From: Alphaproteobacteria bacterium
GTDB taxonomy: Bacteria; Pseudomonadota; Alphaproteobacteria; GCA-2731375
DNA length: 64,000 nucleotides
Direction of reading: 5' to 3'
NCBI GenBank assembly: GCA_965216645.1
Contig: CBDCGJ010000070.1
Coordinates: 1 to 64,000 of the forward strand
A model generated the notes under the pieces. The model was not told the DNA's origin. It did no database searches and was given only the letters and a program-made list of their open reading frames with translations. How positions within the stretch are numbered: the first letter of the stretch is position 1; each line of letters begins with the position of its first letter. A program made the translations under genes and the position numbers. This document shows positions 1,844 to 50,132 of the stretch, piece by piece.

Positions 1844-2029
1844 ATGCGCATTCTCGCCATTACCTTTTGCTTCACATTTTTCGCGGCCTGTACGGCAGAC
1901 AGCTATATGGGCGCGCGTTGCGAAAAACAGGGCCTGACCAAAGGCAGCGCCGAATACAATAGCTGCGTCGACCGGGAAGCCCGCAAGAACCGACGCGATG
2001 TTAACAGGTATTGCTGCGGCGGGCCGTAA
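1844..2029 (+). CDS. small putative lipoprotein or secreted protein
   Basis: 61-aa ORF; N-terminal MRILAITFCFTFFAAC looks like a lipobox. It begins MRIL, like the next paralogue, and is Cys-rich. Confidence 0.3.
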   Translation: MRILAITFCFTFFAACTADSYMGARCEKQGLTKGSAEYNSCVDREARKNRRDVNRYCCGGP

Positions 2030-2116
2030 TAGATGGCGCTAAATATCGACTAGACAATTTTTCCAATTATATATATAGCTATTGTACTAATTTTGGTTAA
2101 TTTTTTGATTATCTGA

Positions 2117-2686
2117 ATGCGCATATTAATTATTGTCTCTCTCCTGATTTTGACCGCTTGTCAAACAACCTCGAACCGCAGCGGAATGAACGATTGGCAC
2201 GACGTTGTCGAAGATCAATCGCGACTCATAGTGGTCAACAATAGCGATGAAGTCGTCCGGCGAAGACAGCGGACCGGCCCACATAGTTGGCAGGAACATG
2301 TTCAATTCAATGATGCCAATATTTATGTCACGGCTGTTTTAGAGCGCTATTACTTCATCGGTACGGATAATGTAGAAGAAACCGAAATGCGGCGCATTTT
2401 CCCTAGGCTGAATGAGCACGGTTTTTCCTATGGAAGTGTCGTCCGCAAGTCGGTCGGCATCGACCCTTTGTTCCTTCTCGTCGCCCGCGGCGAGAAAATT
2501 AGCTGCGTGGTTTTTCGCAAATATACCACCCATCCAGGTTCCTCCCATTACTATCTGCAGTCGGACGAGCAAAAATCAGCACTGATATTTGGCATCGGAT
2601 GTCTGGACGGAAAATCCGCGCCGGAACCCAGTTTGCACAACTTGGCTTCAAAACTAATACAACGGGTCCGGTTCAAAAAATCCTAA
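2117..2686 (+). CDS. lipoprotein of unknown function (paralogue 1 of a tandem family)
   Basis: Lipobox LILTAC. Shares WQEHVQF, C[VL][VL]FRKY..HPGS, IG.AC and a C-terminal R.RFKK motif with the 3584..4162 ORF. Lies in an AT-rich, low-GC patch. Confidence 0.6.
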   Translation: MRILIIVSLLILTACQTTSNRSGMNDWHDVVEDQSRLIVVNNSDEVVRRRQRTGPHSWQEHVQFNDANIYVTAVLERYYFIGTDNVEETEMRRIFPRLNEHGFSYGSVVRKSVGIDPLFLLVARGEKISCVVFRKYTTHPGSSHYYLQSDEQKSALIFGIGCLDGKSAPEPSLHNLASKLIQRVRFKKS

Positions 2687-2923
2687 TCGTGAGGTACCGC
2701 GCCAATGCACGGATGTAAGATTTCGCCTTGAGGTATTGGATAATTCCCAACGCCGACAGTAGAGGGCGGATGTCGATTAAATAGGCGCACGAACAAGAGC
2801 CGACTGAACAGAATGGATCCGCTATCGTCTCTCTTCGTCAACGAATCTTGAATTCCCTGAGATCGACAATTTTCTACAATTCGGCTATTCTGATCTTCAA
2901 TTCGCGCATTTAGTATTGCCGGT

Positions 2924-3511
2924 ATGTATCGTTTATTTATCATAATTTCGGTTTTATTCTTAACCTCCTGCGCCACACCGCCACCGCCGCCGGAGAACAC
3001 GCCGCTGGTCGATGATGGTTGGCGGCAGGTCAATCCCTACGACGTCGTCAACGACTCCATGGTCGAAATCGTCGGCGACGGCGGCGAGGTGCGTAGCCAC
3101 CGATATCGCGAGTTGGCGGATATCCGGCATGAGAAACTACGCTTCTTCGACGGCCTGCTCGATATCCAGGTAAAGCATAAGGGCGAATTCAAGGTCTATT
3201 CGATGAGCCGCGAACATCGGCGTTTGCTGGAAAATTTCCGCCCTCTCCGCGACCTCGGCTTCGTCATCACCGGAATCAAACGGGAAACCCACGGCAGCGA
3301 CAAGTTCTTTTATGCTTTCGCCGAAGGCGATTACCGGCGCTGCGTCACCTTTCGGCTGTACCCGGTACGAAAAACGAAAGTTGGCCGACGGATTCAGATT
3401 ACGGGTTTGGCCTGCGACGAAGACGGCAAGGCGTCTGACAACGTGCTTCTCGACAAAGCCGAAGAGATGTTGACCCGCATACGTTTCAAGGGCCAAAGCA
3501 AGCGAGTGTAA
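2924..3511 (+). CDS. lipoprotein of unknown function (paralogue 2, more divergent)
   Basis: Lipobox LFLTSC followed by a PPPP linker. Shares CVTFRLYP, ITGLACDEDGKASD and a C-terminal RIRFKG with its neighbours. Confidence 0.55.
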   Translation: MYRLFIIISVLFLTSCATPPPPPENTPLVDDGWRQVNPYDVVNDSMVEIVGDGGEVRSHRYRELADIRHEKLRFFDGLLDIQVKHKGEFKVYSMSREHRRLLENFRPLRDLGFVITGIKRETHGSDKFFYAFAEGDYRRCVTFRLYPVRKTKVGRRIQITGLACDEDGKASDNVLLDKAEEMLTRIRFKGQSKRV

Positions 3512-5511: not shown

Positions 5512-6684
5512 CAAGCTCTCTCCTAAGGCACATGCCAAGGCGACCAGCGCCGCGTCCTCGTTGGCGCCGGCGACCAACGACAGGCCGACCGGCGCGCCGT
5601 CCACCATGGCGCCGGGAATGCTGACCTGCGGCATGCCGGCCAAGCCACCATGGGCGCAGAGGCAAAGAATCGCCTCCCGGATCGGATTCTGTTCCCTCAA
5701 CGGCAGGTCCTTAAGCGGCGCCGGAAACGGCGTCGTCGGCATTGCCAGGGCCGTGCCCGGCGGCAGCAGATAGGTCAGCCGCGCCCGCGCCTCTCGCCGC
5801 ATCAACTCGGCCCACTGTCTTTCGCTTTCCGGAATAGCGGCGCCATAGAGCAATCCGCGCGCCACATTGAATGCCAGGCGCGGATTGCAGGTATCGAGCC
5901 ACTCCTTGAAGGTCTCGTAAGCCTCCGCCGGTTGCAGCGTGCGTTGCGCCCGGCCCCAGACCGACAATCCCTGCGGCGCCAGGATGTCCTCTTTCATGGT
6001 CGAAACCAGGCCCGTCAGTTTCCCAATCAGCGGCGCCAGCGCGTTCATGGTTTCTGTCTCGGCGAAACCGAAGGCGTCGCTGGCGATGATCACCCGATCG
6101 ATCTTCGGCGCGCTCAATGGTTCCTGCAACAGCACGGTGGAGATCCGGCGGAACACGGCCGCGTCCTTCGCCAACCAGCCGCAGGTATCGCTGCTCGGCG
6201 CCTGCGGCAGCATACCGGACAGATCGAGCCGACCATGGGTCGGACGAATACCATAGAGGCCGCAAAAACTGGCCGGCACCCGCACGCTGCCGCCCGTATC
6301 GGTGCCAAGGCCAAAGTCGGCCAAACCCGCCCCTACCGCAGCCGCTGTGCCCGAAGACGAACCGCCGGGCACCCGGTCGGGCGCCGCTGTGTTGAGCGGC
6401 GTGCCGTAAAACGCATTCTCCCCCAATATACCGAGCGAGACTTCGTCGGTAATGGTCTTACCGATCAGCGCCGCGCCGGCGTCGAGCAGGCATTGCACCG
6501 CCCAGGCATGATGCGTCGCCTTGCCTTGGCGATTCGCCCAATCCGGATTGCCGCCACCGGTAACATAACCGGCAACGTCGAACAGATCTTTTGCGACGAA
6601 CTCCAGTCCGCTCAGCGGCCCTTCCGCCGCGCCGGCGATGCGAAATTTCGGACCATCCGTAAAGGCATTAACTTTTTCTGACAT
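5512..6684 (-). CDS. amidase-signature family amidohydrolase
   Basis: GGSSSGTAAAVGAGLADFGLGTDTGGSVRVPASFCGLYGIRPTHGRLD matches the AS-family Ser-cisSer-Lys signature region. The track ORF begins at a GTG (6696); the ATG at 6684 has GGGAG 5 nt upstream. Confidence 0.75.
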
Positions 6685-7860: not shown

Positions 7861-8745
7861 TCAATTGGCGAAGGCCTTGCAATAGACGCGGAGCACCAAG
7901 GCGCTTTTACGGTAGCCGGCACCGATATGTGTCCAGTTCTGCGGCGTGATCAGGTCGCGCATGGTGTTCAAGCCGCGCGCGGCCGGATCGACGCCCGACT
8001 GCTCGAACATCTTGCCGAAGGCGGCGGGTGCCGTGGTCATGATACGTCCCCGGCGTTTCGACTCCGCCGACGTCACCCCGACCACCTCGCCCCGGCGATT
8101 GAACACCGGACCGCCGGAAAGCCCGCCCAGACTGCCGCTCAAATTCGGATCCCGCCGCACCTCCGCCCAGACGATCACCCGATCCTCATAACGCGAGCGT
8201 CCGATATGACGTAGCCGTTGCCGGCCGATCGCGGTCGTCCGCACGGCCGCCGGCGTGCCTTGGGGGAAGCCGTAGTGGAAGCCGTCCGCCCCTCGCCCCG
8301 GCGGCGCCGAGGCCAGTTTCACGCTGACCTTCGGCTTGGCGCCGGAGAGCAGGGCGATATCCGAATTCTTATGGATCCAGACCCGTGCCACCTTGAAATA
8401 TTTCTTCCGCTGATGGGACAGGTAGACCGAATGGCAGCCCTCGACCACATGGCGGGCGGTGAACCAAAGGCCTTGGCTTTCGTCGATCGAAAACGCGGTG
8501 CCGAGCGTGTTCCCGGAACGTGGGCCGGATTCGACTTGCCCGATCGGATCGTCCGGCCGCGGCACCAGCGCCGGTCCGGCCGGGCGGTCGTCCTCCCGCG
8601 CCGGCGGCGGGTCCCGCCGCGCCTCCGGTTGCGGCGGCGCGATGAAATCGTCCAGATTGGGTTTGCGCGGCGCTTTCTCCTCGGCGACGTAATTGTTGAA
8701 GACGATCATCAGAACCAGCAGCACGGCCAGCAGCACCAGGCGCAT
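7861..8745 (-). CDS. membrane-anchored trypsin-like (S1/chymotrypsin fold) serine peptidase
   Basis: N-terminal TM helix; TAFSI...TARHVV (His), DIALL (Asp) and GLSGGPVF (Ser) are in the canonical order. Confidence 0.65.
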   Translation of the reverse strand: MRLVLLAVLLVLMIVFNNYVAEEKAPRKPNLDDFIAPPQPEARRDPPPAREDDRPAGPALVPRPDDPIGQVESGPRSGNTLGTAFSIDESQGLWFTARHVVEGCHSVYLSHQRKKYFKVARVWIHKNSDIALLSGAKPKVSVKLASAPPGRGADGFHYGFPQGTPAAVRTTAIGRQRLRHIGRSRYEDRVIVWAEVRRDPNLSGSLGGLSGGPVFNRRGEVVGVTSAESKRRGRIMTTAPAAFGKMFEQSGVDPAARGLNTMRDLITPQNWTHIGAGYRKSALVLRVYCKAFAN

Positions 8746-14404: not shown

Positions 14405-14575
14405 CTTAAAGGGGTCGGAGGGAATTAAAAAAGGGGTCGGAGGGAATTAATTTTGAGCCAGCGCACTGAACTTGAAAAAGGGGTCGGAGGGATTTAATTT
14501 TCAAAGATAGGATAAATTTCTTTTTTAATTTCAATGTGTTGACAAAAATTAAATCCCTCCGACCCCTTTTTGACC
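14405..14575. repeat. iteron-like repeat element: three direct and one inverted copy of a 20-mer around an AT-rich loop
   Basis: AAAGGGGTCGGAGGGA(A/T)TTAA occurs at ~14409, ~14431 and ~14478 in direct orientation and inverted at ~14549-14570. Copy 3 and the inverted copy form a ~27-bp perfect stem around a 46-nt loop containing TTGACA (<30% GC). Confidence 0.85.
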
Positions 14576-14831
14576 GAATGCGCGGTGGCGGGCGCGGCGT
14601 CTGACGTGACGGGAGAATATGTCGGCACAGGTCACTCGTGATCGGACTCATGGTGCGCACGATTATTTGCGCTTGACAATGCCCGTTCATTGCGGCATTT
14701 ACCGCGGCCCGGAAATTGGCCTGGGGCGACAGCGGCGCCGGTTCTGAACGCCGGCCCGGCGGCGCGACCTGAGATCGGTCGTGTCCGTATCGACGCTCCA
14801 CCGCGGTTTCCGTGACCCTGATCATCAGGTC

Positions 14832-14856
14832 GCGGGTTCGATTCCCGCCCCGGCCT
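14832..14856 (+). other. tRNA 3'-end fragment (T-arm plus acceptor 3' strand), followed by GCCA
   Basis: GCGGG-TTCGATT-CCCGC is a canonical T-arm, followed by CCCGGCC and T. No canonical D or anticodon arm was found upstream. Confidence 0.5.
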
Positions 14857-14860
14857 GCCA

Positions 14861-14946
14861 GGTCGGGTAGCTCAGCGGTTAGAGCGGATGAGGCTTTCAA
14901 GCCAACGACTCATAATCGTTTGCGGGTGAAATTCCCGCCCGGATCG
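14861..14946 (+). tRNA. tRNA-like sequence, probable pseudo-tRNA: canonical 5' acceptor plus D-arm, aberrant anticodon region and T-loop
   Basis: GGTCGGG-TA-GCTC-AGCGGTTA-GAGC is a textbook acceptor plus D-arm, and its acceptor strand is fully complementary to the CCCGGCC of the upstream fragment (U3-G70). Downstream are a 17-nt insert, an AACGA-CTCATAA-TCGTT hairpin (CAU in the anticodon position), a T-arm with the non-canonical loop TGAAATT, and an acceptor with one mismatch. Confidence 0.3.
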
Positions 14947-15244
14947 AGAGATCTTGAAAAAAAATGACGGGGGCGCCAGGTGTCCCGCCAAAGTGGTCGG
15001 CAAGGCCGGATTTTGATCCGGCGGCGGCGAATGCGGCGGCACGGCGGTCCGGACTTGAATGACGTTGGATACCGATGTCGACGGCGCGCGGACGCGCCGG
15101 CGGAAAAGCCATGGCCGTTTCGGCGGTCCGGCCAGACCGACCGGTGCGTGGCGCGGGCCCTCGGCGTCTCAAAGCGTCATCCTCCGGCCCGCCGCAAAGG
15201 ATACCTGGCAAACCTTGATTGGTAGAAATTGAATTGGAAGACGA

Positions 15245-16402
15245 GTGATTGGCATGAGAAAGACGATTTTGAAGCTATTGGGCTTCGACGAGATCGTCGT
15301 CGGACCCCAGCATCGGGCGATCGTGATGATCGACGGGAAGTTTGCGGAAATTCTCGAGCCGGGCCGACACTATCTGCGGCGCAGTCTGCGCGACCTGCGG
15401 ATACATCGGTCGGATGTCGAGATGGTGCGCTATGACGGCGACCATGAACAGACGCTGGTCCGGGACAATCCGCAATTGCTCGACAGCTATTTCGCGGTTG
15501 CCGACGTGGCCGACAATCAGATCGCTATCGTCACCGCCGACGGCAAGGTCCACGACACCCTGGCGCCGGGCCTCTACCGGCTGTACTGGAACGTGCTGAA
15601 GCGGATCGAGGTGGAGTTGGTCGACGTCGAGGCGAACTTCGAGGTCTCCGACACCCATGCCCGGAAGATGGCGCATCTGTTCAAGCACAATACCTTGTTG
15701 AGCTACAACCTAGTGCCGGACGGCCATGTCGGCCTGCTTTACGTCGACGGCAAGTTCGACCGGATCCTGCCGCCTGGGGCGCATGCCTTCTGGCGAGGTC
15801 AGCGGAAGATCGAGATGAGCTTGATCGACGGCCGGCTGCGGGAGAAGGAGATCGTCGGCCAGGAGGTGCTGACCAAAGACAAGGTCGGTATTCGGGTCAA
15901 CCTGACCTGCCACTACCGGATCGACGATCCGGTCAAGGTGGCGGGTGCCCTCGCCTCTCTGGACGACTATATGCACAAGTCCATCCAATTCGCGCTACGG
16001 GAAGCGGTCGGCCGCAATACGCTCGACGACATTCTCGACGGCAAGGACCGGCTTGACGCCGCCGTGCGCGAGGACGCGGCGGCGAAGTTCGAAGCCTATG
16101 GCGTGTCCCTGCACGATATCGGCGTGAAGGACGTGGTCCTGCCAGGCGATATGCGGGCGATCATGAACCAGGTGGTGCAGGCGGAAAAGGCGGCCCAGGC
16201 CAGCCTGATCCAGCGGCGGGAGGAAACCGCCGCCACCCGATCCCTGCTCAACACCGCCAAGCTGATGGACGACAACCCGACCCTGATGCGCCTCAAGGAG
16301 CTCGAGTCCCTGGAGCGGATCGTGGACAAGGTCGAAACCCTCAACGTCGTCGGCGGCCTAGACGGCGTGCTGAACGAGCTCGGCAAGCTGAAGACCGGTT
16401 GA
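15245..16402 (+). CDS. SPFH/band-7 (stomatin-prohibitin-flotillin-HflK/C) family protein
   Basis: Long SPFH-domain-like sequence with a C-terminal coiled coil (AEKAAQASLIQRREETAATRSLL...), from recall of the family pattern. An alternative start is at 15254. Confidence 0.65.
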   Translation: MIGMRKTILKLLGFDEIVVGPQHRAIVMIDGKFAEILEPGRHYLRRSLRDLRIHRSDVEMVRYDGDHEQTLVRDNPQLLDSYFAVADVADNQIAIVTADGKVHDTLAPGLYRLYWNVLKRIEVELVDVEANFEVSDTHARKMAHLFKHNTLLSYNLVPDGHVGLLYVDGKFDRILPPGAHAFWRGQRKIEMSLIDGRLREKEIVGQEVLTKDKVGIRVNLTCHYRIDDPVKVAGALASLDDYMHKSIQFALREAVGRNTLDDILDGKDRLDAAVREDAAAKFEAYGVSLHDIGVKDVVLPGDMRAIMNQVVQAEKAAQASLIQRREETAATRSLLNTAKLMDDNPTLMRLKELESLERIVDKVETLNVVGGLDGVLNELGKLKTG

Positions 16403-35941: not shown

Positions 35942-38263
35942 CTACTCGACCGGTGCCGGTAGCTTTTTCGGCTTCGCTTTCTTTGCGGTCGATTTGCCTT
36001 CGAGATAGGCGAAGGTGAGCTTCTTGTCCTCGACGCCGACCATGACTTTGCCGCCCTTGGCGAGCTTGCCGAAGAGCAGTTCGTCGGCCAGCGGTTTCTT
36101 GACCTCTTCCTGGATCAAGCGGGCCAGCGGGCGGGCGCCGTTGGTCTTGTCGTAGCCCTTCTCCGCCAACCAGGCCTTGGCCTCGTCGGTCAGTTCGATC
36201 TCGACCTTGCGTTCGGCCAGTTGATCGGCCAGCTCGACGACGAACTTGTCCACCACCTTGGCGACGACCCGGGGATCGAGATAGCTGAAGGGAATGACCG
36301 CGTCGAGCCGGTTGCGGAATTCCGGCGTGAACAGGCGTTTGATCGCCTCCTCGTCCTCGCCTTCCCGGCTCTCCCGACTGAAGCCGATCGCCGCCTTGGC
36401 CATTTCCTGGGCCCCGGCATTGGTGGTCATGATCAACACCACATTGCGGAAATCCACATGCTTACCGTTATGGTCGGTCAGCTTGCCATAGTCCATCACC
36501 TGCAACAGGATGTTGAACAGGTCGGGATGGGCCTTCTCGATCTCGTCCAGCAGCAGCACCGCGTGGGGATGCTGGTCGATGGCGTCGGTCAGCATGCCGC
36601 CCTGGTCGAAACCGACATAGCCGGGCGGGGCGCCGATCAGGCGCGACACCGTATGTCGCTCCATATATTCCGACATATCGAAGCGGACCAGCTCCATGCC
36701 CATGATCCGGGCCAACTGCCGGGCCACTTCGGTCTTGCCGACACCGGTGGGGCCGGAGAAAAGATAGCTGCCGATCGGTTTCTCGCCTTCGCGCAGGCCG
36801 GCCCGCGACATCTTGATCGCCGTCGATAGGGCCTCGATGGCGTCGTCCTGACCGTAGACCACCTCGCGTAGATCCTCCGACAGGCTCTTCAGATTGGCCT
36901 TGTCGTCCTTCGACACGGATTTCGGTGGAATGCGGGCGATCTTGGCGACCACGGCCTCAACTTCCTTGACCCCGATGGTCCGCCGGCGTTGGCGCTCCGG
37001 CACCAGCATCTGGGCCGCGCCGACCTCATCGATGACGTCGATCGCCTTGTCGGGCAGCTTGCGGTCGTTGATGTATTTCGCCGCCAACTCGACCGAGGCT
37101 TTGATCGCCCCCTTGGTGTAGCGGATCTTGTGATAATCCTCGTAATAGGGCTTCAGCCCCATCATGATTTTGATCGCGTCGGAAACCGAGGGTTCGTTGA
37201 TGTCGATCTTCTGGAAGCGGCGCAGCAGGGCCCGGTCCTTCTCGAAGTAACCGCGGTATTCCTTATAGGTCGTGCTGCCCATGCAGCGGATGGAGCCGCT
37301 GGCGAGCGCCGGCTTCAGCATGTTGGACGCATCCATGGCGCCGCCGGAGGTGGCGCCGGCGCCGATTACCGTGTGGATTTCGTCGATGAAGAGGATGGCG
37401 TTGTCATGATTCTCCAACTCTTGGATGACGCCCTTCAGCCGCTCCTCGAAGTCGCCGCGATAGCGGGTGCCGGCCAAAAGCGTGCCCATGTCGAGGGCGA
37501 AGATGGTGCTCTCCTTCAACACTTCCGGCACCTCGCCGAGCACGATGCGCCGCGCCAGTCCCTCGGCGATGGCGGTCTTGCCGACGCCCGGATCGCCGAC
37601 GAAAAGCGGATTGTTCTTCTGCCGCCGGCAGAGTACCTGGATGGTCCGTTCCAATTCCAGACCGCGGCCGATCAATGGGTCGACCCGGCCTTCGCGCGCC
37701 TTCTCGTTCAGGTTGACGCAATAGGCCGAAAGCGCCTCGCCCTCGGGCGCGACCGTGGCTTCCTCGCCCTCCTCCTCCTCGTCGGCGCCGCGGACCGGCC
37801 GGTATTCGGACTTGCCGTCCGATTTGGCGACGCCATGGGAGATGAAGCTGACGGCGTCGAGCCGGGTCATCCCCTGCTCCTGCAGGAAATAGACGGCATG
37901 GCTCTCCCGCTCCGAAAACAGCGCGACCAGCACATTGGCGCCCGTGACATTCTCCCGCCCGGATGATTGCACATGGTAGACCGCGCGCTGGATCACGCGC
38001 TGAAATCCGGCCGTCGGCTTGGCGTCTTCGTTGCTGTCGCCGGGGACGGTCAGCGCCGCGAGTTCGTTGTCGAGATAGTTGCCCAGCTGTTGGCGCAACT
38101 GCTCGATATCGATCTCGCAGGCCTGCAGCACATTCTCGGCATCGTGATCGTCGATCAAGGCCAAGAGCAGATGTTCGAGGGTAGCATATTCATGCCGCCG
38201 GTCGTTCGCTTCCTTCAGCGCCCGATGCAGACTTTGTTCGAGTTCGGTGGCGAATGAGGGCAC
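35942..38263 (-). CDS. clpA: ATP-dependent Clp protease ATP-binding subunit ClpA
   Basis: Two AAA+ modules ([30 protein letters not shown]). A GTG start at 38263 gives [16 protein letters not shown]... with GGAGAAGG RBS, and overlaps the clpS stop by 1 nt. Confidence 0.9.
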
Positions 38264-38265
38264 TA

Positions 38266-38607
38266 TTCCTTCTCCAAAGTACATTGCAACGGGTGTTGAT
38301 GCTTACGCGCAAAATCGATGGTCTGCATGACCTTGGTCTCGGCCACGTCATAGGTATAGATGCCGCAGACGCCGACCCCGCGCTGATGGACATGCAGCAT
38401 GATCTGCACCGCCTCATCGGAATTCTTGTGAAAGAATCGCTGCAGGACGTCGACGACAAACTCCATCGGCGTGTAATCGTCGTTCAACATTAGAACACGG
38501 TACATGGACGGTTTCTTGGTCTTGGTGCGCGTCTGTGTGACGACACCGGTTCCGCTGTCACCGTTGTCCGTGTCGTTGTCGCTCATCGTGATCGACAGTC
38601 TGATCAT
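38266..38607 (-). CDS. clpS: ATP-dependent Clp protease adaptor ClpS
   Basis: [25 protein letters not shown]...[14 protein letters not shown] is the canonical ClpS core. Confidence 0.85.
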
Positions 38608-38798
38608 ACCATGTCTCGATACGGTCCCTCATAATAAGGACGAAATTGTGGTGATTGGAAGGGGAATTCTCCCCATCACGGTTAATGTGACGAGGCGGAT
38701 TTCACCATATCCATTTCGGCATACGAAAAAGGGCGCCAACCGGATGTTGGCGCCCTCCATCGATTTTTCAAGCCGAAATTTCGGCAGAACTGTTGCCT

Positions 38799-39296
38799 TT
38801 AGGCCGCGGCCTTGGACATGGTCTCGACCGTCTTGCTGACCTGTCCGTTCACCGGCTTGGCAACATTTTCGGCCAATTCCTTGGTCATCTTGCCGATTTT
38901 CTCGCCCTGCGCGACCCAGTTCTCGACCCGCGTCTTGACGTGATCGTTCTGGATCTCCATCGCTTCCTTCAGGGTGCCGGCGGCGGCCATGGCCTGGGCG
39001 GCTTTCACGTTAGCGTCGAAGGTGGACTTGCCGTAGGCCATCCACTCGGCGGCCATGGCTTCCATGCCCTTGGTGTAGACCGTGGCCACTTCCTTCATGA
39101 CCTCGACGTTTTCCTGATTAAATGCCGCCAAGTCGTCGTAATTAAACGCGGTTTTCTGCCACTGAGCGTTGGCGTCGCCCCACATTTTTTCGTAGCTTTC
39201 GGTGCTGGCGGCCCAGAAAGATTGCCAAGCTTCCTTATTCGCGTTCATGGCCTCTTCGACCGGGTTCGCCTTCGATTGAGTCTTCTTCGTCATCAC
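38799..39296 (-). CDS. phasin-family (PHA-granule-associated) protein
   Basis: 165 aa, Ala/Lys/Glu-rich amphipathic helices with a phasin-like N-terminal pattern. Confidence 0.65.
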   Translation of the reverse strand: MMTKKTQSKANPVEEAMNANKEAWQSFWAASTESYEKMWGDANAQWQKTAFNYDDLAAFNQENVEVMKEVATVYTKGMEAMAAEWMAYGKSTFDANVKAAQAMAAAGTLKEAMEIQNDHVKTRVENWVAQGEKIGKMTKELAENVAKPVNGQVSKTVETMSKAAA

Positions 39297-39655
39297 AAAA
39301 CCTTTCCACTCGTTCCGCCGGATCGCCGACGATTTTGCTGGCTGTTCGCGGTCAAACCTTGACCGTTTCCGAACCGTTATCCCGTATTCCGCAGTGCGTC
39401 ATATGAATTTGTGCACCGCAATATCGTTAAACATAATGATGGCGTTCCCGAAGTCAATGGATTTTTTTGTGCACTGCACAAAAAATTTTTGCGCATGCAC
39501 ATTCAGACAACATTAACCCAGTTTTGCTAGGAAAGTTGAAGCCGGTGCTTGTCTAATATTATGATGGTAGAGATTCGGGTATCGGAGACATTGGGTTGGA
39601 TATACCGAGAATCGCCATAGAGCGGTCGAATCAACTTGTATCGAGTAGCGGGAAG

Positions 39656-40912
39656 ATGCTGAAAAACAGACTCCACCGAATTTCCATCCCCATCGTATTC
39701 GGCTTGTTTGCGGGTTACGCCTTCGGCGCGCAAGCCGCGTTGAAACCGCGCTATGCCGGATTCGTTATGGAGGAGAATTCCAGTTACGTCTTGTTCGACA
39801 AAGGCGCGACGCTCCGCAACCACCCGGCCTCCCTGACCAAGATCATGACTCTCTACCTTCTGTTCGAAGCGATCGAGGTCGGTCGCATGAAGCTCACCTC
39901 GAAGCTGAAGGTATCCAAACATGCGGCGAGCCAACCGCCGTCGAAAATCGGCGTGGTTGCCGGGACGACGATCACGGCGGAGCAGGCGATTAAGGCGCTG
40001 GTGACGAAATCCGCCAACGATGTCGCCGTGGTGATCGCGGAAAACCTGGCGAAAACCGAGCAGAACTTCGCCCGGCTCATGACCAAACGCGCCAGGGTCA
40101 TCGGCATGAACCGCACGACCTTCAAAAACGCCTCCGGCCTACATGACGACAAGCAATTGTCGACCGCCCGGGACATGGCCCGTTTGACGAAGATCTTGCG
40201 CCTGCGCTTTCGCAAGTATTATCACTACTTCTCGACCCGTTCCTTCACCTATCGCGGCCGCACCTTCGGCAATCACAACAATCTGCTCGGCAGCTATCGC
40301 GGCATGGACGGTGTCAAAACCGGCTATACGCGTAAGTCCGGCTACAATCTGGTCTCGGCAGTGGAGCGGAATGGCGTCCGGCTTATCGGCGTCGTCTTCG
40401 GCGGAAGCTCGGCCGGCGCCCGGGATCAGGAAATGGCCCGGATGTTGAACCAAGCGTTCAAGAAGATCAAAACCGTGCCGAAGTCGAAACTGAAGGCGCC
40501 GCAATCCTTCTACCGGGTCGGCAAACCGCGCCTGCGCTTCCGTGGCCTGCCGGCGCCGCGCCAGCGACCCGGCAAGAACCGCGGCAACCCCACGGCCGCG
40601 ATCGAAAAACCGAAGGCGAGACCGGCGGCGATCGGCGGCGGCGGCAGCGATGCCGATTGGGCGGTCCAAATCGGCGCCTACACCCGCTATACCAGCGCGC
40701 GGCGTCGCGTGTCGGAAGTCACCGATAGCCTGGGCTCGGGCGATTCATCCGTGCGCAGCGACATCGATAAGATTACGACAGGCGGCGGCACCATATTTCG
40801 GGCCCGGTTTGTCGACTTGACGGAACGCGAAGCGGAATCCCTGTGCGAGGAACTAAAAGGCAAGGGCATCAAATGCCTCATCCTCGATCCGGAGAAACAA
40901 GACCCGCTTTAA
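39656..40912 (+). CDS. serine-type D-alanyl-D-alanine carboxypeptidase (S11) with a C-terminal SPOR domain
   Basis: Signal peptide; SLTKIM (SxxK), SAND (SxN) and KTG motifs; the C-terminal AVQIGAYTRYTSARRR...IFRARFVDLTEREAESLCEEL is SPOR-like. ATG at 39656. Confidence 0.75.
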   Translation: MLKNRLHRISIPIVFGLFAGYAFGAQAALKPRYAGFVMEENSSYVLFDKGATLRNHPASLTKIMTLYLLFEAIEVGRMKLTSKLKVSKHAASQPPSKIGVVAGTTITAEQAIKALVTKSANDVAVVIAENLAKTEQNFARLMTKRARVIGMNRTTFKNASGLHDDKQLSTARDMARLTKILRLRFRKYYHYFSTRSFTYRGRTFGNHNNLLGSYRGMDGVKTGYTRKSGYNLVSAVERNGVRLIGVVFGGSSAGARDQEMARMLNQAFKKIKTVPKSKLKAPQSFYRVGKPRLRFRGLPAPRQRPGKNRGNPTAAIEKPKARPAAIGGGGSDADWAVQIGAYTRYTSARRRVSEVTDSLGSGDSSVRSDIDKITTGGGTIFRARFVDLTEREAESLCEELKGKGIKCLILDPEKQDPL

Positions 40913-48735: not shown

Positions 48736-50132
48736 GGGATGGACCTTTCCCGCTTTCTATTCCTCAATGGACGGCTTCTAAGAGCCAGTGAGGTGGATTT
48801 GAAAGGAGAAAGGCCCATGACGGAGATTAGTTTGTTGAGCATCGATTTGGCAAAGAACATTTTTCACATTCACGGGACCGATGGGGCGGGCGAGACGGTG
48901 TTGGAGAAGAAACTGCGCCGCGCCGCTTTGAAGCGTTATCTGGCGGCCTTGCCGCCCTGTCGCATCGCCATGGAGAGCTGCGGCGGGGCGAACTATTGGG
49001 GCCGCTATTGCCAATCACTGGGCCATGAGGTGGTGCTGATCCATCCGCGCCGGGTGGCGATGTTTTTGGGCGCGCATAAGAGCGATACGCGGGACGCCCG
49101 CGCCATCACCACCGCGGCCAGGCAGCCGGACACACGGTTTATCCCGGTGAAGACGATGACGCAGCAGGACCTGGGCAGCCTCTTGCGCCTGCGCGAGGGC
49201 CTGCTCGGCCAGCGCACCGAGACGGTCAACCGGCTGCGCGGCCTGTTGGCCGAATACGGCCATGTCTACCCCAAAGGCCGGGCCCGCTTCTGCCGCCAGC
49301 TGCCGCTTTGGCTGGCCGAGCTCGAACTCGCTCCGGCGCTCCTGCGCGGCCTGGAAATGCAGGCACTGATGCTGCTCGAGATCGAGGCTCAGATCCGCGA
49401 ACTCGACGGCCTGATCAAGGCTCAGCTGAAGGCCGACGAGCGCGCCCCGTGGCTGCTTTCGATCCCCGGCATCGGCCCCTTGACCGCCGCCGCCCTCATC
49501 GCCGCCGTCGACGATCCCGGCCTCTATGCCTCGGCCCGCATGTTCGCCGCCTGGCTCGGTCTGGTGCCCAGACAGCACGGCACCGGCGGGCGCACCCGAT
49601 TGTTGCGCATCACCAAACGCGGCAACGCCCTGATCCGCAAATGGCTGGTCCAGGGCGCGCACAGCCTGATCACCGTCGCCGGCCGCCAGCAACAGCCGCG
49701 CAACCGGCTCGAGGCCTTCATCATGCGCAAGCGCGCCGAAAACCTCAATCGCAACGTCCTCGCCGTCGCCGTCGCCAACCGACTGGCCCGCATCGCCTGG
49801 GCCTGCCTGAGCAAACAAACCAGCTTCAATCCCGCCGGCTGAAGCTGACCACCGCCACGCAACCGAAACCACGAACGAAACGCAAAAGACCAGCAAAACA
49901 CAGCAGAAAAGGACAAACCCCATTCACCGCGAGAAGAAGACATGGCAGGACCGAGACCCGGGTCAGGACGGAGCGTCATCGACCAAAAAAGGTCGTCGGG
50001 ATGATTGTACCGACCCGGGCCGCGATCGACCCATTCCGTCCAGGGCAACAAAACCCGCAAACAGGACGAATACATGAGCGTGGGTCAAAGCCACAGTTTC
50101 TTCTTGCAAATCCGGAAAGGTCCATACATGAC
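48736..50132 (+). mobile_element. IS110-family IS, copy B (full length), inserted after a CCCGGGATGA REP-like motif
   Basis: Near-identical to copy A over the transposase (one N/D difference seen) and ~85-90% identical over the 5' UTR; the right end ...CATACATGAC lies at 50128-50132. Confidence 0.7.
48817..49842 (+). CDS. IS110-family transposase
   Basis: 341 aa, MTEISLLSIDLAKNIFHIHG...; the longer track ORF has an unsupported 5' extension. Confidence 0.85.
   Translation: MTEISLLSIDLAKNIFHIHGTDGAGETVLEKKLRRAALKRYLAALPPCRIAMESCGGANYWGRYCQSLGHEVVLIHPRRVAMFLGAHKSDTRDARAITTAARQPDTRFIPVKTMTQQDLGSLLRLREGLLGQRTETVNRLRGLLAEYGHVYPKGRARFCRQLPLWLAELELAPALLRGLEMQALMLLEIEAQIRELDGLIKAQLKADERAPWLLSIPGIGPLTAAALIAAVDDPGLYASARMFAAWLGLVPRQHGTGGRTRLLRITKRGNALIRKWLVQGAHSLITVAGRQQQPRNRLEAFIMRKRAENLNRNVLAVAVANRLARIAWACLSKQTSFNPAG

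What the first reader, a model, noticed from the sequence alone, without database searches (positions are those of the whole stretch)
14832..14946. The tRNA-like pieces are in 3'-half-then-5'-half order and their acceptor strands are complementary
The order [T-arm + 3' acceptor strand] followed 4 nt later by [5' acceptor strand + D-arm] is the reverse of what a simple 3'-end integration leaves behind, which is full tRNA ... 3' fragment. All seven acceptor pairs form between the two pieces. A permuted two-piece tmRNA was considered. The text GCC AAC GAC downstream would encode A-N-D as alpha-type tags begin. But the D-arm is fully canonical (tmRNA lacks one), the 3-70 pair is U-G rather than G-U, and the tag frame stops after four codons. 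So tandem duplication plus deletion of a tRNA gene, or recombination between attL/attR-type sites, is more likely.
Basis: partly seen in the sequence, partly recalled or inferred. Interest (0 to 1): 0.55.

Follow-up and report, generated by a model that had tools for sequence, protein, structure and literature searches.

The report
Permuted tRNA mimic upstream of Band-7 gene
The "back-to-front tRNA" is real and is not gene debris: it is a conserved, circularly permuted tRNA look-alike of the bacterial Y-RNA (YrlA) type, sitting in a long conserved leader in front of a Band-7/SPFH gene, a pairing predicted for RNA-repair systems but never tested experimentally.

Summary
Bases 14822-14891 form a complete tRNA body in permuted order: anticodon-stem 3' strand, variable loop, T-arm, acceptor stem closed by a loop, D-arm, anticodon-stem 5' strand. 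ARAGORN calls no tRNA or tmRNA in the native order. It calls a clean tRNA once the two halves are swapped back. Rfam's best local match is the tRNA-like domain of YrlA, the bacterial Y RNA. The nearest DNA relatives in plasmids are true YrlA genes in rtcR-rsr-YrlA-rtcB operons. The window has no Rsr, no RtcB, no Rsr-binding motif and no terminal stem. Instead the element lies 363 nt upstream of a Band-7/SPFH gene. Homologues of that gene elsewhere carry either a tRNA-like gene (the predicted "b7a-tRNA") or the same permuted module plus that tRNA, at the same position. Across six sequences from five loci, 99% of cells pair, and 13 of 21 pairs show compensatory changes in all four helices. Here, and in one relative, the downstream tRNA has shrunk to an anticodon-like hairpin plus a second T-arm. 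The "duplication/deletion or att scar" reading does not hold as an accident, although an ancient tRNA-dimer origin fits the literature. Verdict: new variant of a known kind, moderate interest.

The parts
14673..14701 (+). Candidate promoter: -35 TTGACA (14673-78) and a weak -10-like CATTTA 17 nt downstream
   Evidence: TTGACA aligns in 5 of the 6 relatives' leaders that reach this far (A6). The simple promoter scan did not call it because the -10 is poor. This part is inferred.
14730..14778 (+). Conserved 5' block of the leader: CAGCGG, hairpin GCCGG-UUCUGAACG-CCGGC (14737-55), then CCTGAGATCGG (14768-78)
   Evidence: Aligned blocks in A3, A4 and A6. The hairpin stem covaries: GCCGG/CCGGC, AUGGG/CCCAU, and UCAGG/CCUGA in the gamma-type loci.
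14822..14826 (+). 3' strand of the closing stem (anticodon-stem equivalent), UCAUC
   Evidence: Pairs 5/5 with 14887-91. In relatives the same columns read GCGAG/CUCGC, ACGAG/CUCGU and GCGAU/AUCGC; 4 of 5 pairs show compensatory change.
14827..14831 (+). Variable-loop equivalent AGGUC (A44, G46 and C48 present)
   Evidence: Read from the sequence. Aligned in A5.
14832..14848 (+). T-arm 1 with a canonical T-loop UUCGAUU
   Evidence: 5/5 pairs, 2 of them compensatory across relatives. Matches the YrlA T-arm in Rfam.
14849..14867 (+). Closed acceptor-like stem: CCCGGCC / loop UGCCA / GGUCGGG (7 bp; 8 bp if U14856-A14860 pairs)
   Evidence: 6 of 7 pairs show compensatory change across relatives, whose stems are 6-9 bp with unrelated sequences.
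14868..14886 (+). U8 A9, the D-arm GCUC-AGCGGUUA-GAGC, and G26
   Evidence: unique in the window. The D stem covaries GCUC/GAGC versus GUUC/GAAC.
14887..14891 (+). 5' strand of the closing stem, GAUGA
   Evidence: (MFE of the module).
14892..14903 (+). Small linker hairpin GGCU-UUCA-AGCC. It occupies the place where relatives carry the 5' acceptor strand and D-arm of the b7a-tRNA.
   Evidence: A6 shows a gap here in the window and in L146 relative to L147, L149, L150 and L152. The hairpin is predicted.
14904..14920 (+). Hairpin AACGA-CUCAUAA-UCGUU, homologous to the anticodon arm of the b7a-tRNA of relatives.
   Evidence: Aligns with AGCGA-CUCAUAA-UCGCU (L150), AGCGA-CUGUAAA-UCGCU (L149), AGAGA-...-UCUCU (L147, L152) and GGAC-CUAACAC-GUCC (L146).
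14922..14946 (+). T-arm 2, GCGGG-UGAAAUU-CCCGC (non-canonical loop), followed by CCGGAUC G
   Evidence: Homologous to the T-arm of the b7a-tRNA in relatives, where the loop is canonical. CCGGAUC pairs 6/7 with 14861-67, but the equivalent strand in L146 is not complementary.
14947..15253 (+). Conserved 3' part of the leader, up to the start codon (e.g. GGATACCG 15067-74, CTCAAAG near 15168)
   Evidence: A3, A4 and A6. No convincing intrinsic terminator on the + strand between the module and the gene: the scan lists only two weak 5-bp candidates at 14994-15009.
15254..16402 (+). Band-7/SPFH (slipin) protein gene, the conserved partner of the RNA
   Evidence: Pfam PF01145 at 2.2e-35. 41% identical over its full length both to the RtcB-linked Band-7 of L006 and to the L150 protein.

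Best explanation
Bases 14822-14891 are the tRNA-mimic domain of a non-coding RNA (or long leader) that belongs with the Band-7/SPFH gene at 15254-16402.

**What it is.** The domain is a circularly permuted tRNA of the YrlA (bacterial Y RNA) type. A T-arm, an acceptor stem closed by a loop, and a D-arm are held together by a 5-bp stem where the anticodon stem would be. The fold should give the tRNA L-shape with an intact elbow but no anticodon and no free CCA end. In relatives this module is followed by a complete tRNA-like gene, the 'band-7-associated tRNA' predicted by Burroughs and Aravind. In this genome, and in one relative, that second tRNA has lost its 5' acceptor strand and D-arm. Only its anticodon-arm hairpin and T-arm remain, which is why the region looks like one tRNA with an insertion.

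**Shown here.** The structure, its covariation, its fixed position upstream of homologous Band-7 genes, and its kinship with the YrlA tRNA-like domain.

**Inferred mechanism.** The RNA is transcribed from the conserved upstream promoter. Like Y RNA with Ro/Rsr, it serves as the cognate RNA of the Band-7 scaffold. Its tRNA-like elbow would recruit tRNA-handling enzymes or damaged-tRNA repair factors. In gammaproteobacterial relatives the same gene pair sits beside RtcB, RlaP and large tRNA arrays. The 7-bp acceptor stem could allow RNase P cleavage, as reported for M. smegmatis YrlA.
For: Structure in the window:
-.
- Rfam YrlA local match of 41.6 bits over model positions 23-87, which is exactly the tRNA-like domain.

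Kinship with YrlA:
- blastn finds the module at about 80% identity in rtcR-rsr-YrlA-rtcB loci of Rhizobium, Shinella, Xanthomonas and Novosphingobium plasmids.
- Full-length YrlA scores 60-72 bits in those loci.

Association with Band-7:
- Homologues of the downstream gene carry a tRNA 350-570 nt upstream on the same strand in L001-L012.
- They carry the permuted module plus a tRNA in L147-L150 and L152.
- L146 shows the same fused form as the window.

Covariation and model search:
- 99.2% of cells pair and 13 of 21 pairs have changes on both sides. 0 of 500 shuffles reach this, and slid controls pair at about 40%.
- A covariance model built from the Band-7-type modules finds true YrlA domains at 44-58 bits and phage YrlA-like modules at 40-58 bits. 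Junctions of real tandem tRNAs in arrays score 35 bits or less.

Context in relatives:
- RtcB, RlaP and HNH lie next to Band-7 in the gamma-type loci.

Literature:
- YrlA as a permuted tRNA mimic, with RNase P cleavage when the acceptor stem is 7 bp (PMC4201824).
- b7a-tRNA, and the statement that YrlA is occasionally adjacent to the Band-7 protein (bioRxiv 10.1101/312249, Discussion, citing NAR 44:8525, which I could not read).
Against: - No expression or binding data exist. b7a-tRNA itself has never been validated experimentally (10.1101/312249).
- The window has no RtcB, RlaP or Rsr in 64 kb, so a role in RNA repair is an extrapolation from relatives.
- T-loop 2 is degenerate and the second tRNA is truncated, so part of the locus may be decaying.
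- A competing hairpin, CCUGA-UCA-UCAGG (14817-29), overlaps the closing stem, and the unconstrained MFE of the wider region prefers other pairings.
- Only six sequences support the covariation, and two of them are near-identical.
- Conservation runs right up to the start codon with no convincing terminator, which fits a cis-acting leader as well as a trans-acting RNA.
Confidence: 0.6

Rival explanations
1. The identity is the same (a conserved permuted tRNA mimic), but it acts in cis. It would be a structured 5' leader that controls the Band-7 gene. One possibility is cleavage by RNase P or by a tRNA-targeting nuclease, or binding by a tRNA-binding protein, so that Band-7 expression reports on the state of the tRNA pool.
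For: The whole stretch from the TTGACA box to the ATG is conserved in relatives. There is no convincing + strand terminator between the module and the gene. The distance to the start codon is fixed at about 350-570 nt in all loci. Several carriers have no RtcB nearby.
Against: In Rsr systems the equivalent module is part of a stable trans-acting RNA (PMC4201824). In the gamma-type loci the tRNA-like gene looks like a free-standing tRNA with an encoded CCA. Nothing here tests cis versus trans action.
Confidence: 0.25
2. A decaying pair of tandem tRNA genes, or a duplication-plus-deletion product. The 3' half of copy 1 and the 5' half of copy 2 would happen to be the best-preserved parts.
For: Dimeric tRNAs are a known false positive for YrlA models (PMC4201824, methods). 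T-arm 2 resembles T-arm 1 at 16 of 19 positions. The downstream strand CCGGAUC pairs 6/7 with the 5' acceptor strand. A weak resemblance of 14777-14823 to a tRNA 5' half appears. The exact-arm pattern found no relative in metagenomes.
Against: The same permuted order recurs upstream of homologous genes in five other loci, with compensatory changes in all four helices. In L146 the downstream strand is not complementary, so only the permuted pairing is conserved. All defects lie outside 14822-14891 and none inside. The sequence upstream of the module aligns with the leaders of relatives, not with a tRNA 5' half.
Confidence: 0.05
3. A scar of site-specific recombination: an attR-type tRNA 3' fragment left beside another tRNA by an integrated element.
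For: The 3' piece begins at the anticodon-stem position, a common crossover region. An AT-rich repeat cluster lies 250 nt upstream. The region downstream of AcrB is not syntenic in relatives.
Against: No integrase and no intact tRNA occur in the window. The arrangement is conserved with covariation in unrelated contexts.
Confidence: 0.03
4. A two-piece (permuted) tmRNA gene of the alphaproteobacterial type, or its remnant.
For: The gene order, acceptor piece then coding piece. An A-N-D reading frame at 14901. ARAGORN at -ps80 reports a permuted tmRNA that uses these tRNA-like halves. AcrB homologues suggest an alphaproteobacterial host.
Against: ARAGORN at default settings finds nothing. The best Rfam tmRNA match is 19 bits against a threshold of 47. 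The D-arm is canonical. The tag would be ANDS* or an implausible 26-mer. No pseudoknots are evident. The A-N-D codons lie in a hairpin that is homologous to a tRNA anticodon arm.
Confidence: 0.01

Closest known systems
YrlA (Rfam RF02553), the tRNA-like bacterial Y RNA bound by Rsr/Ro60
   Same: The domain order is the same: T-arm, closed acceptor-like stem, D-arm, closing stem. The T and D arm sequences are nearly identical (about 80% identity to the Rhizobium and Shinella YrlA domains). The two are recognised reciprocally by covariance models. A 7-bp acceptor stem, as in M. smegmatis and Novosphingobium YrlA (PMC4201824).
   Different: There is no GNCGAAN0-1G Rsr-binding motif upstream. There is no long terminal helix. 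No rsr lies within 64 kb. The score is 41.6 bits against a gathering score of 69. The closing stem is a clean 5 bp with a 5-nt variable loop, with no V-arm insertion. The module is embedded in a conserved leader of about 590 nt upstream of a Band-7 gene.
b7a-tRNA (band-7-associated tRNA), predicted by Burroughs & Aravind 2016 as summarised in bioRxiv 10.1101/312249
   Same: It lies immediately upstream of, and on the same strand as, a Band-7/SPFH gene of the same family (41% identity to RtcB-linked members). The hairpin at 14904-20 and T-arm 2 are homologous to the anticodon arm and T-arm of that tRNA. The summary already notes that YrlA is occasionally adjacent to the Band-7 protein.
   Different: Here the linear tRNA is truncated: its own 5' acceptor strand and D-arm are missing, the variable loop is 1 nt, and the T-loop is degenerate. 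The intact fold is the permuted one. No RtcB is nearby.
Two-piece tmRNA of Alphaproteobacteria
   Same: A permuted gene order in which the T-arm and 3' acceptor strand precede the 5' acceptor strand.
   Different: The D-arm is full, the acceptor end is closed, there is no credible tag frame or pseudoknots, and ARAGORN and Rfam do not detect it.
Circularly permuted tRNA genes of Cyanidioschyzon and some archaea
   Same: The 3' half precedes the 5' half, and the acceptor stem is initially closed (as discussed in 10.1101/312249).
   Different: Those genes are processed through a bulge-helix-bulge splice into decoding tRNAs. Bacteria lack that endonuclease, and this module has no anticodon-loop sequence at its ends.

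Membership tests
YrlA (RF02553) | tRNA-like domain in the order T-arm, closed acceptor-like stem, D-arm, with the tRNA tertiary-contact nucleotides | tested here: met
YrlA (RF02553) | GNCGAAN0-1G (Rsr-binding) motif near the 5' end, upstream of the tRNA-like domain | tested here: not met
   The regex finds no match between 14500 and the module. The only nearby match is downstream, at 15026, and the motif occurs 91 times in the window. It is present about 30 nt upstream of the domain in Rhizobium, Shinella and Novosphingobium YrlA.
YrlA (RF02553) | Helix formed by the 5' and 3' ends of the RNA, enclosing the tRNA-like domain | tested here: not met
   Beyond the 5-bp closing stem, the flank-to-flank duplex is no better than shuffled sequence: 371 of 500 shuffles were as good. 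Rfam aligns only model positions 23-87.
YrlA (RF02553) | Encoded within about 4 kb of an rsr (TROVE) gene on the same strand | tested here: not met
   Pfam on all large ORFs. tblastn of Rhizobium Rsr against the whole window gave no hit.
YrlA (RF02553) | Reaches the Rfam gathering score (69 bits) | tested here: not met
   41.6 bits, local alignment. True YrlA next to rsr scored 60-72 bits full length.
b7a-tRNA / Band-7-associated tRNA-like RNA | Located directly upstream of a Band-7/SPFH gene of the RtcB-associated family, on the same strand | tested here: met
   The module ends 363 nt before the ATG at 15254, and the finding's end (14946) lies 308 nt before it. The protein is 41% identical to the L006 Band-7, which is followed by RtcB and RlaP.
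b7a-tRNA / Band-7-associated tRNA-like RNA | Strong resemblance to an authentic linear tRNA | tested here: inconclusive
   Rfam tRNA scores 34.1 bits (threshold 29) but with a 25-nt insertion. ARAGORN finds nothing at default settings. Relatives score 54-66 bits. The window keeps only the anticodon arm and T-arm of that tRNA.
b7a-tRNA / Band-7-associated tRNA-like RNA | Operon partner RtcB (RNA ligase) | tested here: not met
   No RtcB or RlaP hit in the 64-kb window. RtcB is present in L001, L002, L004, L006, L007 and L009, with fragments in L005.
Two-piece tmRNA | Detected by ARAGORN or Rfam, with a tag reading frame that has a resume codon and a proteolysis-type C-terminus | tested here: not met
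   The frame reads ANDS*.
Integrase att-site remnant | Integrase gene and an intact parent tRNA at the other end of an island, with a direct repeat of the tRNA 3' part | tested here: not met
   No tRNA in the window. No integrase among the ORFs scanned. The window covers only 14.8 kb to the left.
Permuted tRNA gene (algal/archaeal type) | Processing through a bulge-helix-bulge splice into a decoding tRNA with an anticodon loop | not testable with these tools
   Needs RNA end-mapping. The module has no anticodon-loop sequence at its ends.

The most novel reading that the evidence does not exclude
The roughly 590-nt stretch from 14673 to 15253 may be one large, previously undescribed structured RNA that accompanies a whole family of Band-7/SPFH genes. 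It would combine a 5' hairpin with a T-loop-like loop, a YrlA-type permuted tRNA, a (here truncated) tRNA and a conserved 3' domain. It would act as the RNA scaffold or tRNA-damage sensor of the Band-7 assembly, independently of Rsr and even of RtcB. The series 'tRNA only', 'permuted module plus tRNA' and 'fused form' would then capture steps in how Y-RNA-like tRNA mimics arise from tRNA dimers.
Probability: 0.3. Interest if true: 0.7.

Novelty: new variant of a known kind. Interest (0 to 1): 0.5.

Why it matters
Y RNAs and their Ro partners are well studied. The proposed second pairing, a Band-7/SPFH protein with a tRNA-like RNA, rests on a single comparative-genomics prediction and has no Rfam family and no experiments.

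This locus and its relatives add four things:
- A YrlA-type permuted tRNA is a conserved, covarying part of the Band-7 RNA.
- It can exist without the Rsr-binding module and without RtcB.
- It sits in a much longer conserved leader.
- Forms with a tRNA only, with module plus tRNA, and with the two fused co-exist. That gives concrete material for the idea that tRNA mimics evolve from tRNA dimers.

There is also a practical point. Such elements are reported by Rfam as odd tRNAs and would be annotated as pseudo-tRNAs or missed altogether.

Tried and rejected
- **tRNA/tmRNA finders.** ARAGORN on the window found no tRNA or tmRNA. Relaxed ARAGORN gave only poor linear cloverleaves and implausible tmRNAs.
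- **Rsr, RtcB or an integrase in the window.** None found.
- **A terminal, Ro-binding-type stem between the flanks.** Not better than shuffled sequence.
- **Metagenome scan.** The exact T-arm and D-arm with a free acceptor stem gave one hit, an ordinary tRNA array.
- **Generic permuted pattern in viral contigs.** Mostly true tandem tRNAs (98 of 132 hits), plus some YrlA-like modules, three of them next to Rsr homologues.
- **Synteny through the AcrB neighbour.** Relatives at 69-74% identity share only MFP-AcrB.
- **E. coli genomes.** No similarity.
- **PADLOC on the Band-7 proteins.** No defence-system match.
- **Burroughs & Aravind 2016.** The paper could not be read. Its content is cited only through 10.1101/312249 and from memory.
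- **Copy 1 as a decayed tRNA 5' half.** The idea, that 14777-14823 is such a half, was dropped once that stretch aligned with the leaders of relatives.
Full report
**1. The observation**

The sequence at 14822-14946 reads as follows (coordinates fixed).

| Element | Sequence | Position |
|---|---|---|
| Closing stem, 3' strand | UCAUC | 14822-26 |
| Variable loop | AGGUC | 14827-31 |
| T-arm 1 | GCGGG-UUCGAUU-CCCGC | 14832-48 |
| Acceptor 3' strand | CCCGGCC | 14849-55 |
| Loop | U, then GCCA | 14856-60 |
| Acceptor 5' strand | GGUCGGG | 14861-67 |
| U8 A9 and D-arm | UA, GCUC-AGCGGUUA-GAGC | 14868-85 |
| G26 | G | 14886 |
| Closing stem, 5' strand | GAUGA | 14887-91 |
| Linker hairpin | GGCUUUCAAGCC | 14892-903 |
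| Anticodon-like hairpin | AACGA-CUCAUAA-UCGUU | 14904-20 |
| T-arm 2 | GCGGG-UGAAAUU-CCCGC | 14922-38 |
| Trailing strand | CCGGAUC G | 14939-46 |

In addition, a 5-bp stem closes the module where an anticodon stem would be.

ARAGORN finds no tRNA or tmRNA in the whole window. When the two halves are swapped back and any 7-nt loop is inserted, ARAGORN calls a clean 76-nt tRNA at default settings. The 70-nt module alone folds into the four-way junction at -31.1 kcal/mol. In native order only relaxed thresholds give poor cloverleaves.

**2. First identification**

- At gathering thresholds Rfam reports only "tRNA", 34.1 bits, for 14861-14946, with a 25-nt insertion in the anticodon region.
- An E-value scan of the surrounding 1 kb puts YrlA (RF02553, bacterial Y RNA-like) on top: 41.6 bits, E=1.3e-7, window 14824-14891. 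It is aligned to model positions 23-87 of 114, which is exactly the T-arm, acceptor-like stem and D-arm.
- YrlA RNAs are Rsr (Ro60) partners whose central domain is a circularly permuted tRNA. They carry psi55 and dihydrouridine. When the acceptor stem has 7 bp (M. smegmatis), they are cut by RNase P and receive CCA (PMC4201824; structure in bioRxiv 10.1101/312249). The same authors warn that dimeric tRNAs are false positives for such models.
- blastn against plasmids finds window 14826-14890 at 77-83% identity in 20 records.
- In the four rsr-linked records inspected (Rhizobium, Xanthomonas, Shinella, Novosphingobium) the hit lies between an rsr-like gene and rtcB, next to rtcR.
- There YrlA aligns full length at 60-72 bits and has the GNCGAAUG motif about 30 nt upstream.
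- One further hit, on a 9.6-kb Gluconobacter plasmid, is an orphan module with no such neighbours.

**3. Why it is not a standard YrlA**

- The window has no TROVE/Rsr, RtcB or RlaP. This rests on Pfam scans of all large ORFs and on tblastn with Rhizobium Rsr and with two RtcB proteins over all 64 kb.
- There is no GNCGAAN0-1G motif upstream of the module.
- The flanks do not form a terminal helix.

**4. The decisive context**

The gene 363 nt downstream of the module (15254-16402, + strand) encodes a Band-7/SPFH "slipin" protein. Its homologues were fetched from genomes (about 40% identity) and from assemblies.

- In L001-L012 an ARAGORN-called tRNA lies 350-570 nt upstream on the same strand, except L009, where only Rfam finds it. 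The anticodon varies: Ile, Met, Val, Lys, Leu.
- In the gammaproteobacterial MAGs that tRNA follows arrays of up to 25 tRNAs and an HNH gene. Band-7 is followed by RtcB in six loci, with fragments in a seventh, and by RlaP in two.
- This is the arrangement summarised in 10.1101/312249 (Discussion). [quoted passage not shown] - The primary paper (Burroughs & Aravind, NAR 44:8525) was not available. From memory, its abstract speaks of Rot/TROVE and SPFH/Band-7 scaffolds with cognate non-coding RNAs.

**5. Relatives with the permuted module**

In L147/L148, L149, L150 and L152 (Band-7 41-43% identical to the window's by BLASTP) the leader contains two elements. First comes a T-arm, closed stem, D-arm module. 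About 10 nt later comes a complete b7a-tRNA with encoded ACCA. Rfam sees a local YrlA match (31-37 bits) in three of these loci and a tRNA (55-66 bits) in all four, side by side where both are found.

L146 (Band-7 53% identical; the contig starts inside T-arm 1) has the same fused form as the window:
- closed stem CCCGGC/GCCGGG;
- D-arm;
- a short linker;
- a 7-nt-loop hairpin GGAC/GUCC;
- 1 nt, then a canonical T-arm 2.

In L146 the strand after T-arm 2 is not complementary to the 5' acceptor strand. The conserved fold is therefore the permuted one, not a linear tRNA. L136/L137 (51%; flanked by transposases) keep T-arm 1 and a hairpin but have lost the D-arm.

**6. Covariation**

On a MAFFT alignment of six modules, with the structure written from the window, one search gives:
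- 99.2% of 126 cells pair;
- 13 of 21 pairs carry changes on both sides, 23 cells in all;
- 0 of 500 shuffles reach these values;
- sliding the partners by 1-3 columns drops pairing to 26-43%.

| Helix | Pairs with compensatory change |
|---|---|
| Closing stem | 4 of 5 |
| T stem | 2 of 5 |
| Acceptor-like stem | 6 of 7 |
| D stem | 1 of 4 |

A covariance model built from these six was searched over held loci.

| Target | Score (bits) |
|---|---|
| The six modules it was built from | 80-90 |
| Gluconobacter orphan | 64.5 |
| True YrlA domains beside rsr | 44-58 |
| Phage YrlA-like modules | 40-58 |
| L146 fragment | 40.9 |
| Junctions of real tandem tRNAs in arrays | 35 or less |

Three of the phage modules lie next to Rsr homologues. 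Caveats: there are few sequences, two of them are nearly identical, and the structure was derived from one member.

**7. The rest of the finding's interval**

Whole-leader alignments show that 14904-20 aligns with the anticodon arm of the relatives' b7a-tRNA. L150 even shares the CUCAUAA loop, and the stems covary: AACGA/UCGUU, AGCGA/UCGCU, AGAGA/UCUCU, GGAC/GUCC. T-arm 2 aligns with that tRNA's T-arm.

The window and L146 lack that tRNA's 5' acceptor strand and D-arm, and both have a 1-nt variable loop. The degenerate T-loop 2 of the window fits this, because it has no D-loop partner left.

The palindromic stem also yields an ANDYESLA* frame on the other strand, which ARAGORN reports only at -ps70.

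**8. A larger conserved region**

The alignments show conservation from a TTGACA box (14673-78) to the start codon. Conserved blocks include:
- CAGCGG plus the covarying hairpin GCCGG-UUCUGAACG-CCGGC (14737-55);
- CCTGAGATCGG (14768-78);
- GGATACCG (15067-74);
- further blocks downstream.

No convincing + strand terminator separates the module from the gene. Rfam has no family for any of this.

**9. Explanation**

Shown: the element is a conserved, structured, permuted tRNA mimic of the YrlA type, tied to a Band-7 gene family that in other bacteria sits in RtcB RNA-repair operons.

Inferred: it is transcribed with, or just ahead of, the Band-7 mRNA. Its tRNA-like elbow then does one of two things.
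- It serves as the cognate RNA of the Band-7 scaffold, recruiting tRNA-handling or repair enzymes by analogy with Y RNA and Ro.
- It acts in cis as a leader that couples Band-7 expression to tRNA-processing or tRNA-damaging activities.

I cannot separate these two. I favour the first at about 0.6 against 0.25. Accident-type explanations (a decaying tRNA dimer, an att scar) and tmRNA together get under 0.1.

**10. Novelty**

The kind is known: YrlA, and the published note that YrlA-like RNAs can neighbour Band-7. This instance differs in four ways:
- it lacks the Rsr-binding module;
- it has no Rsr or RtcB anywhere in the 64-kb window;
- it is fused to a truncated b7a-tRNA;
- it lies inside a long conserved leader.

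I rate it a new variant of a known kind, interest 0.5. The host is probably an alphaproteobacterium, judged from named AcrB homologues. It is poorly sampled: the best non-self Band-7 hit among 5.8 billion proteins is 53% identical.

Noticed in passing
window 14408-14571: An AT-rich island (about 33% GC in a 61% GC window) holds four copies of AAAGGGGTCGGAGGGAWTTAA. Three are direct (spacing 22 and 47 nt) and one is inverted, giving a perfect 27-bp inverted repeat (14475-14501 / 14545-14571). The motif occurs nowhere else in the window. It looks like iterons, a MITE or a protein-binding array, and lies 250 nt upstream of the tRNA-like element.
   Followed up: partly
window 14673-15253: The whole intergenic stretch upstream of the Band-7 gene is conserved in six other loci. 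It includes a TTGACA box, a covarying hairpin with a UUCNGNANG loop (14737-55), and blocks such as GGATACCG (15067-74). It may be one large structured RNA or leader, and it has no Rfam family.
   Followed up: partly
L001-L007 (e.g. L006 5542-9679): Gammaproteobacterial MAG loci carry tRNA gene arrays (up to 25 in L006/L007) with 1-10-nt spacers. These are followed by an HNH endonuclease gene (in six of the seven loci), a b7a-tRNA, Band-7, RtcB and sometimes RlaP.
   Followed up: partly
L140 1563-1641 (Gluconobacter sphaericus plasmid NZ_CP068424.1, about 7950-8030): An orphan permuted tRNA module: 7-bp closed acceptor stem, encoded ACCA, 5-bp closing stem, 64.5 bits with model R1. A hairpin plus a U-run (a likely intrinsic terminator) follows directly. 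The 9.6-kb plasmid carries no Rsr, Band-7 or RtcB.
   Followed up: partly
L142 about 5994-6073 (Novosphingobium sp. THN1 plasmid pTHN): A full-length-type YrlA (GGCGAAUG motif, terminal stem). Its acceptor-like stem is 7 bp with a G3:U70 pair and an encoded ACCA, so it carries the alanine-identity pair.
   Followed up: no
L147 4587-5264 and L152 3467-4090: A gene for a B3_4 domain protein (PF03483, the domain found in the PheRS beta subunit) lies just upstream of the Band-7 RNA in two independent loci.
   Followed up: no
window 14892-14920, minus strand: The reverse strand of the CAU-loop hairpin reads GCA AAC GAT TAT GAG TCG TTG GCT TGA (ANDYESLA*), a tmRNA-tag-like frame. ARAGORN reports it only at -ps70. 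I judge it a coincidence of the palindromic stem.
   Followed up: yes
window 14965-14978, minus strand: A terminator-like hairpin followed by eight T on the minus strand lies just downstream of the element. No convincing minus-strand gene ends there.
   Followed up: no
window 48739-49842: An IS110-family transposase gene (PF01548/PF02371). Low-GC patches at 2001-3000 and 38001-40000 also suggest some mobile DNA in the window.
   Followed up: no
L135 3338-3560: In a metagenome tRNA array, a tRNA 5' half (GGGCCCATAGCTCAGCGGTTAGAGCAGCCGGCTCAGG...) is followed by a long insertion before the next tRNA. It may be an intron-containing tRNA.
   Followed up: no
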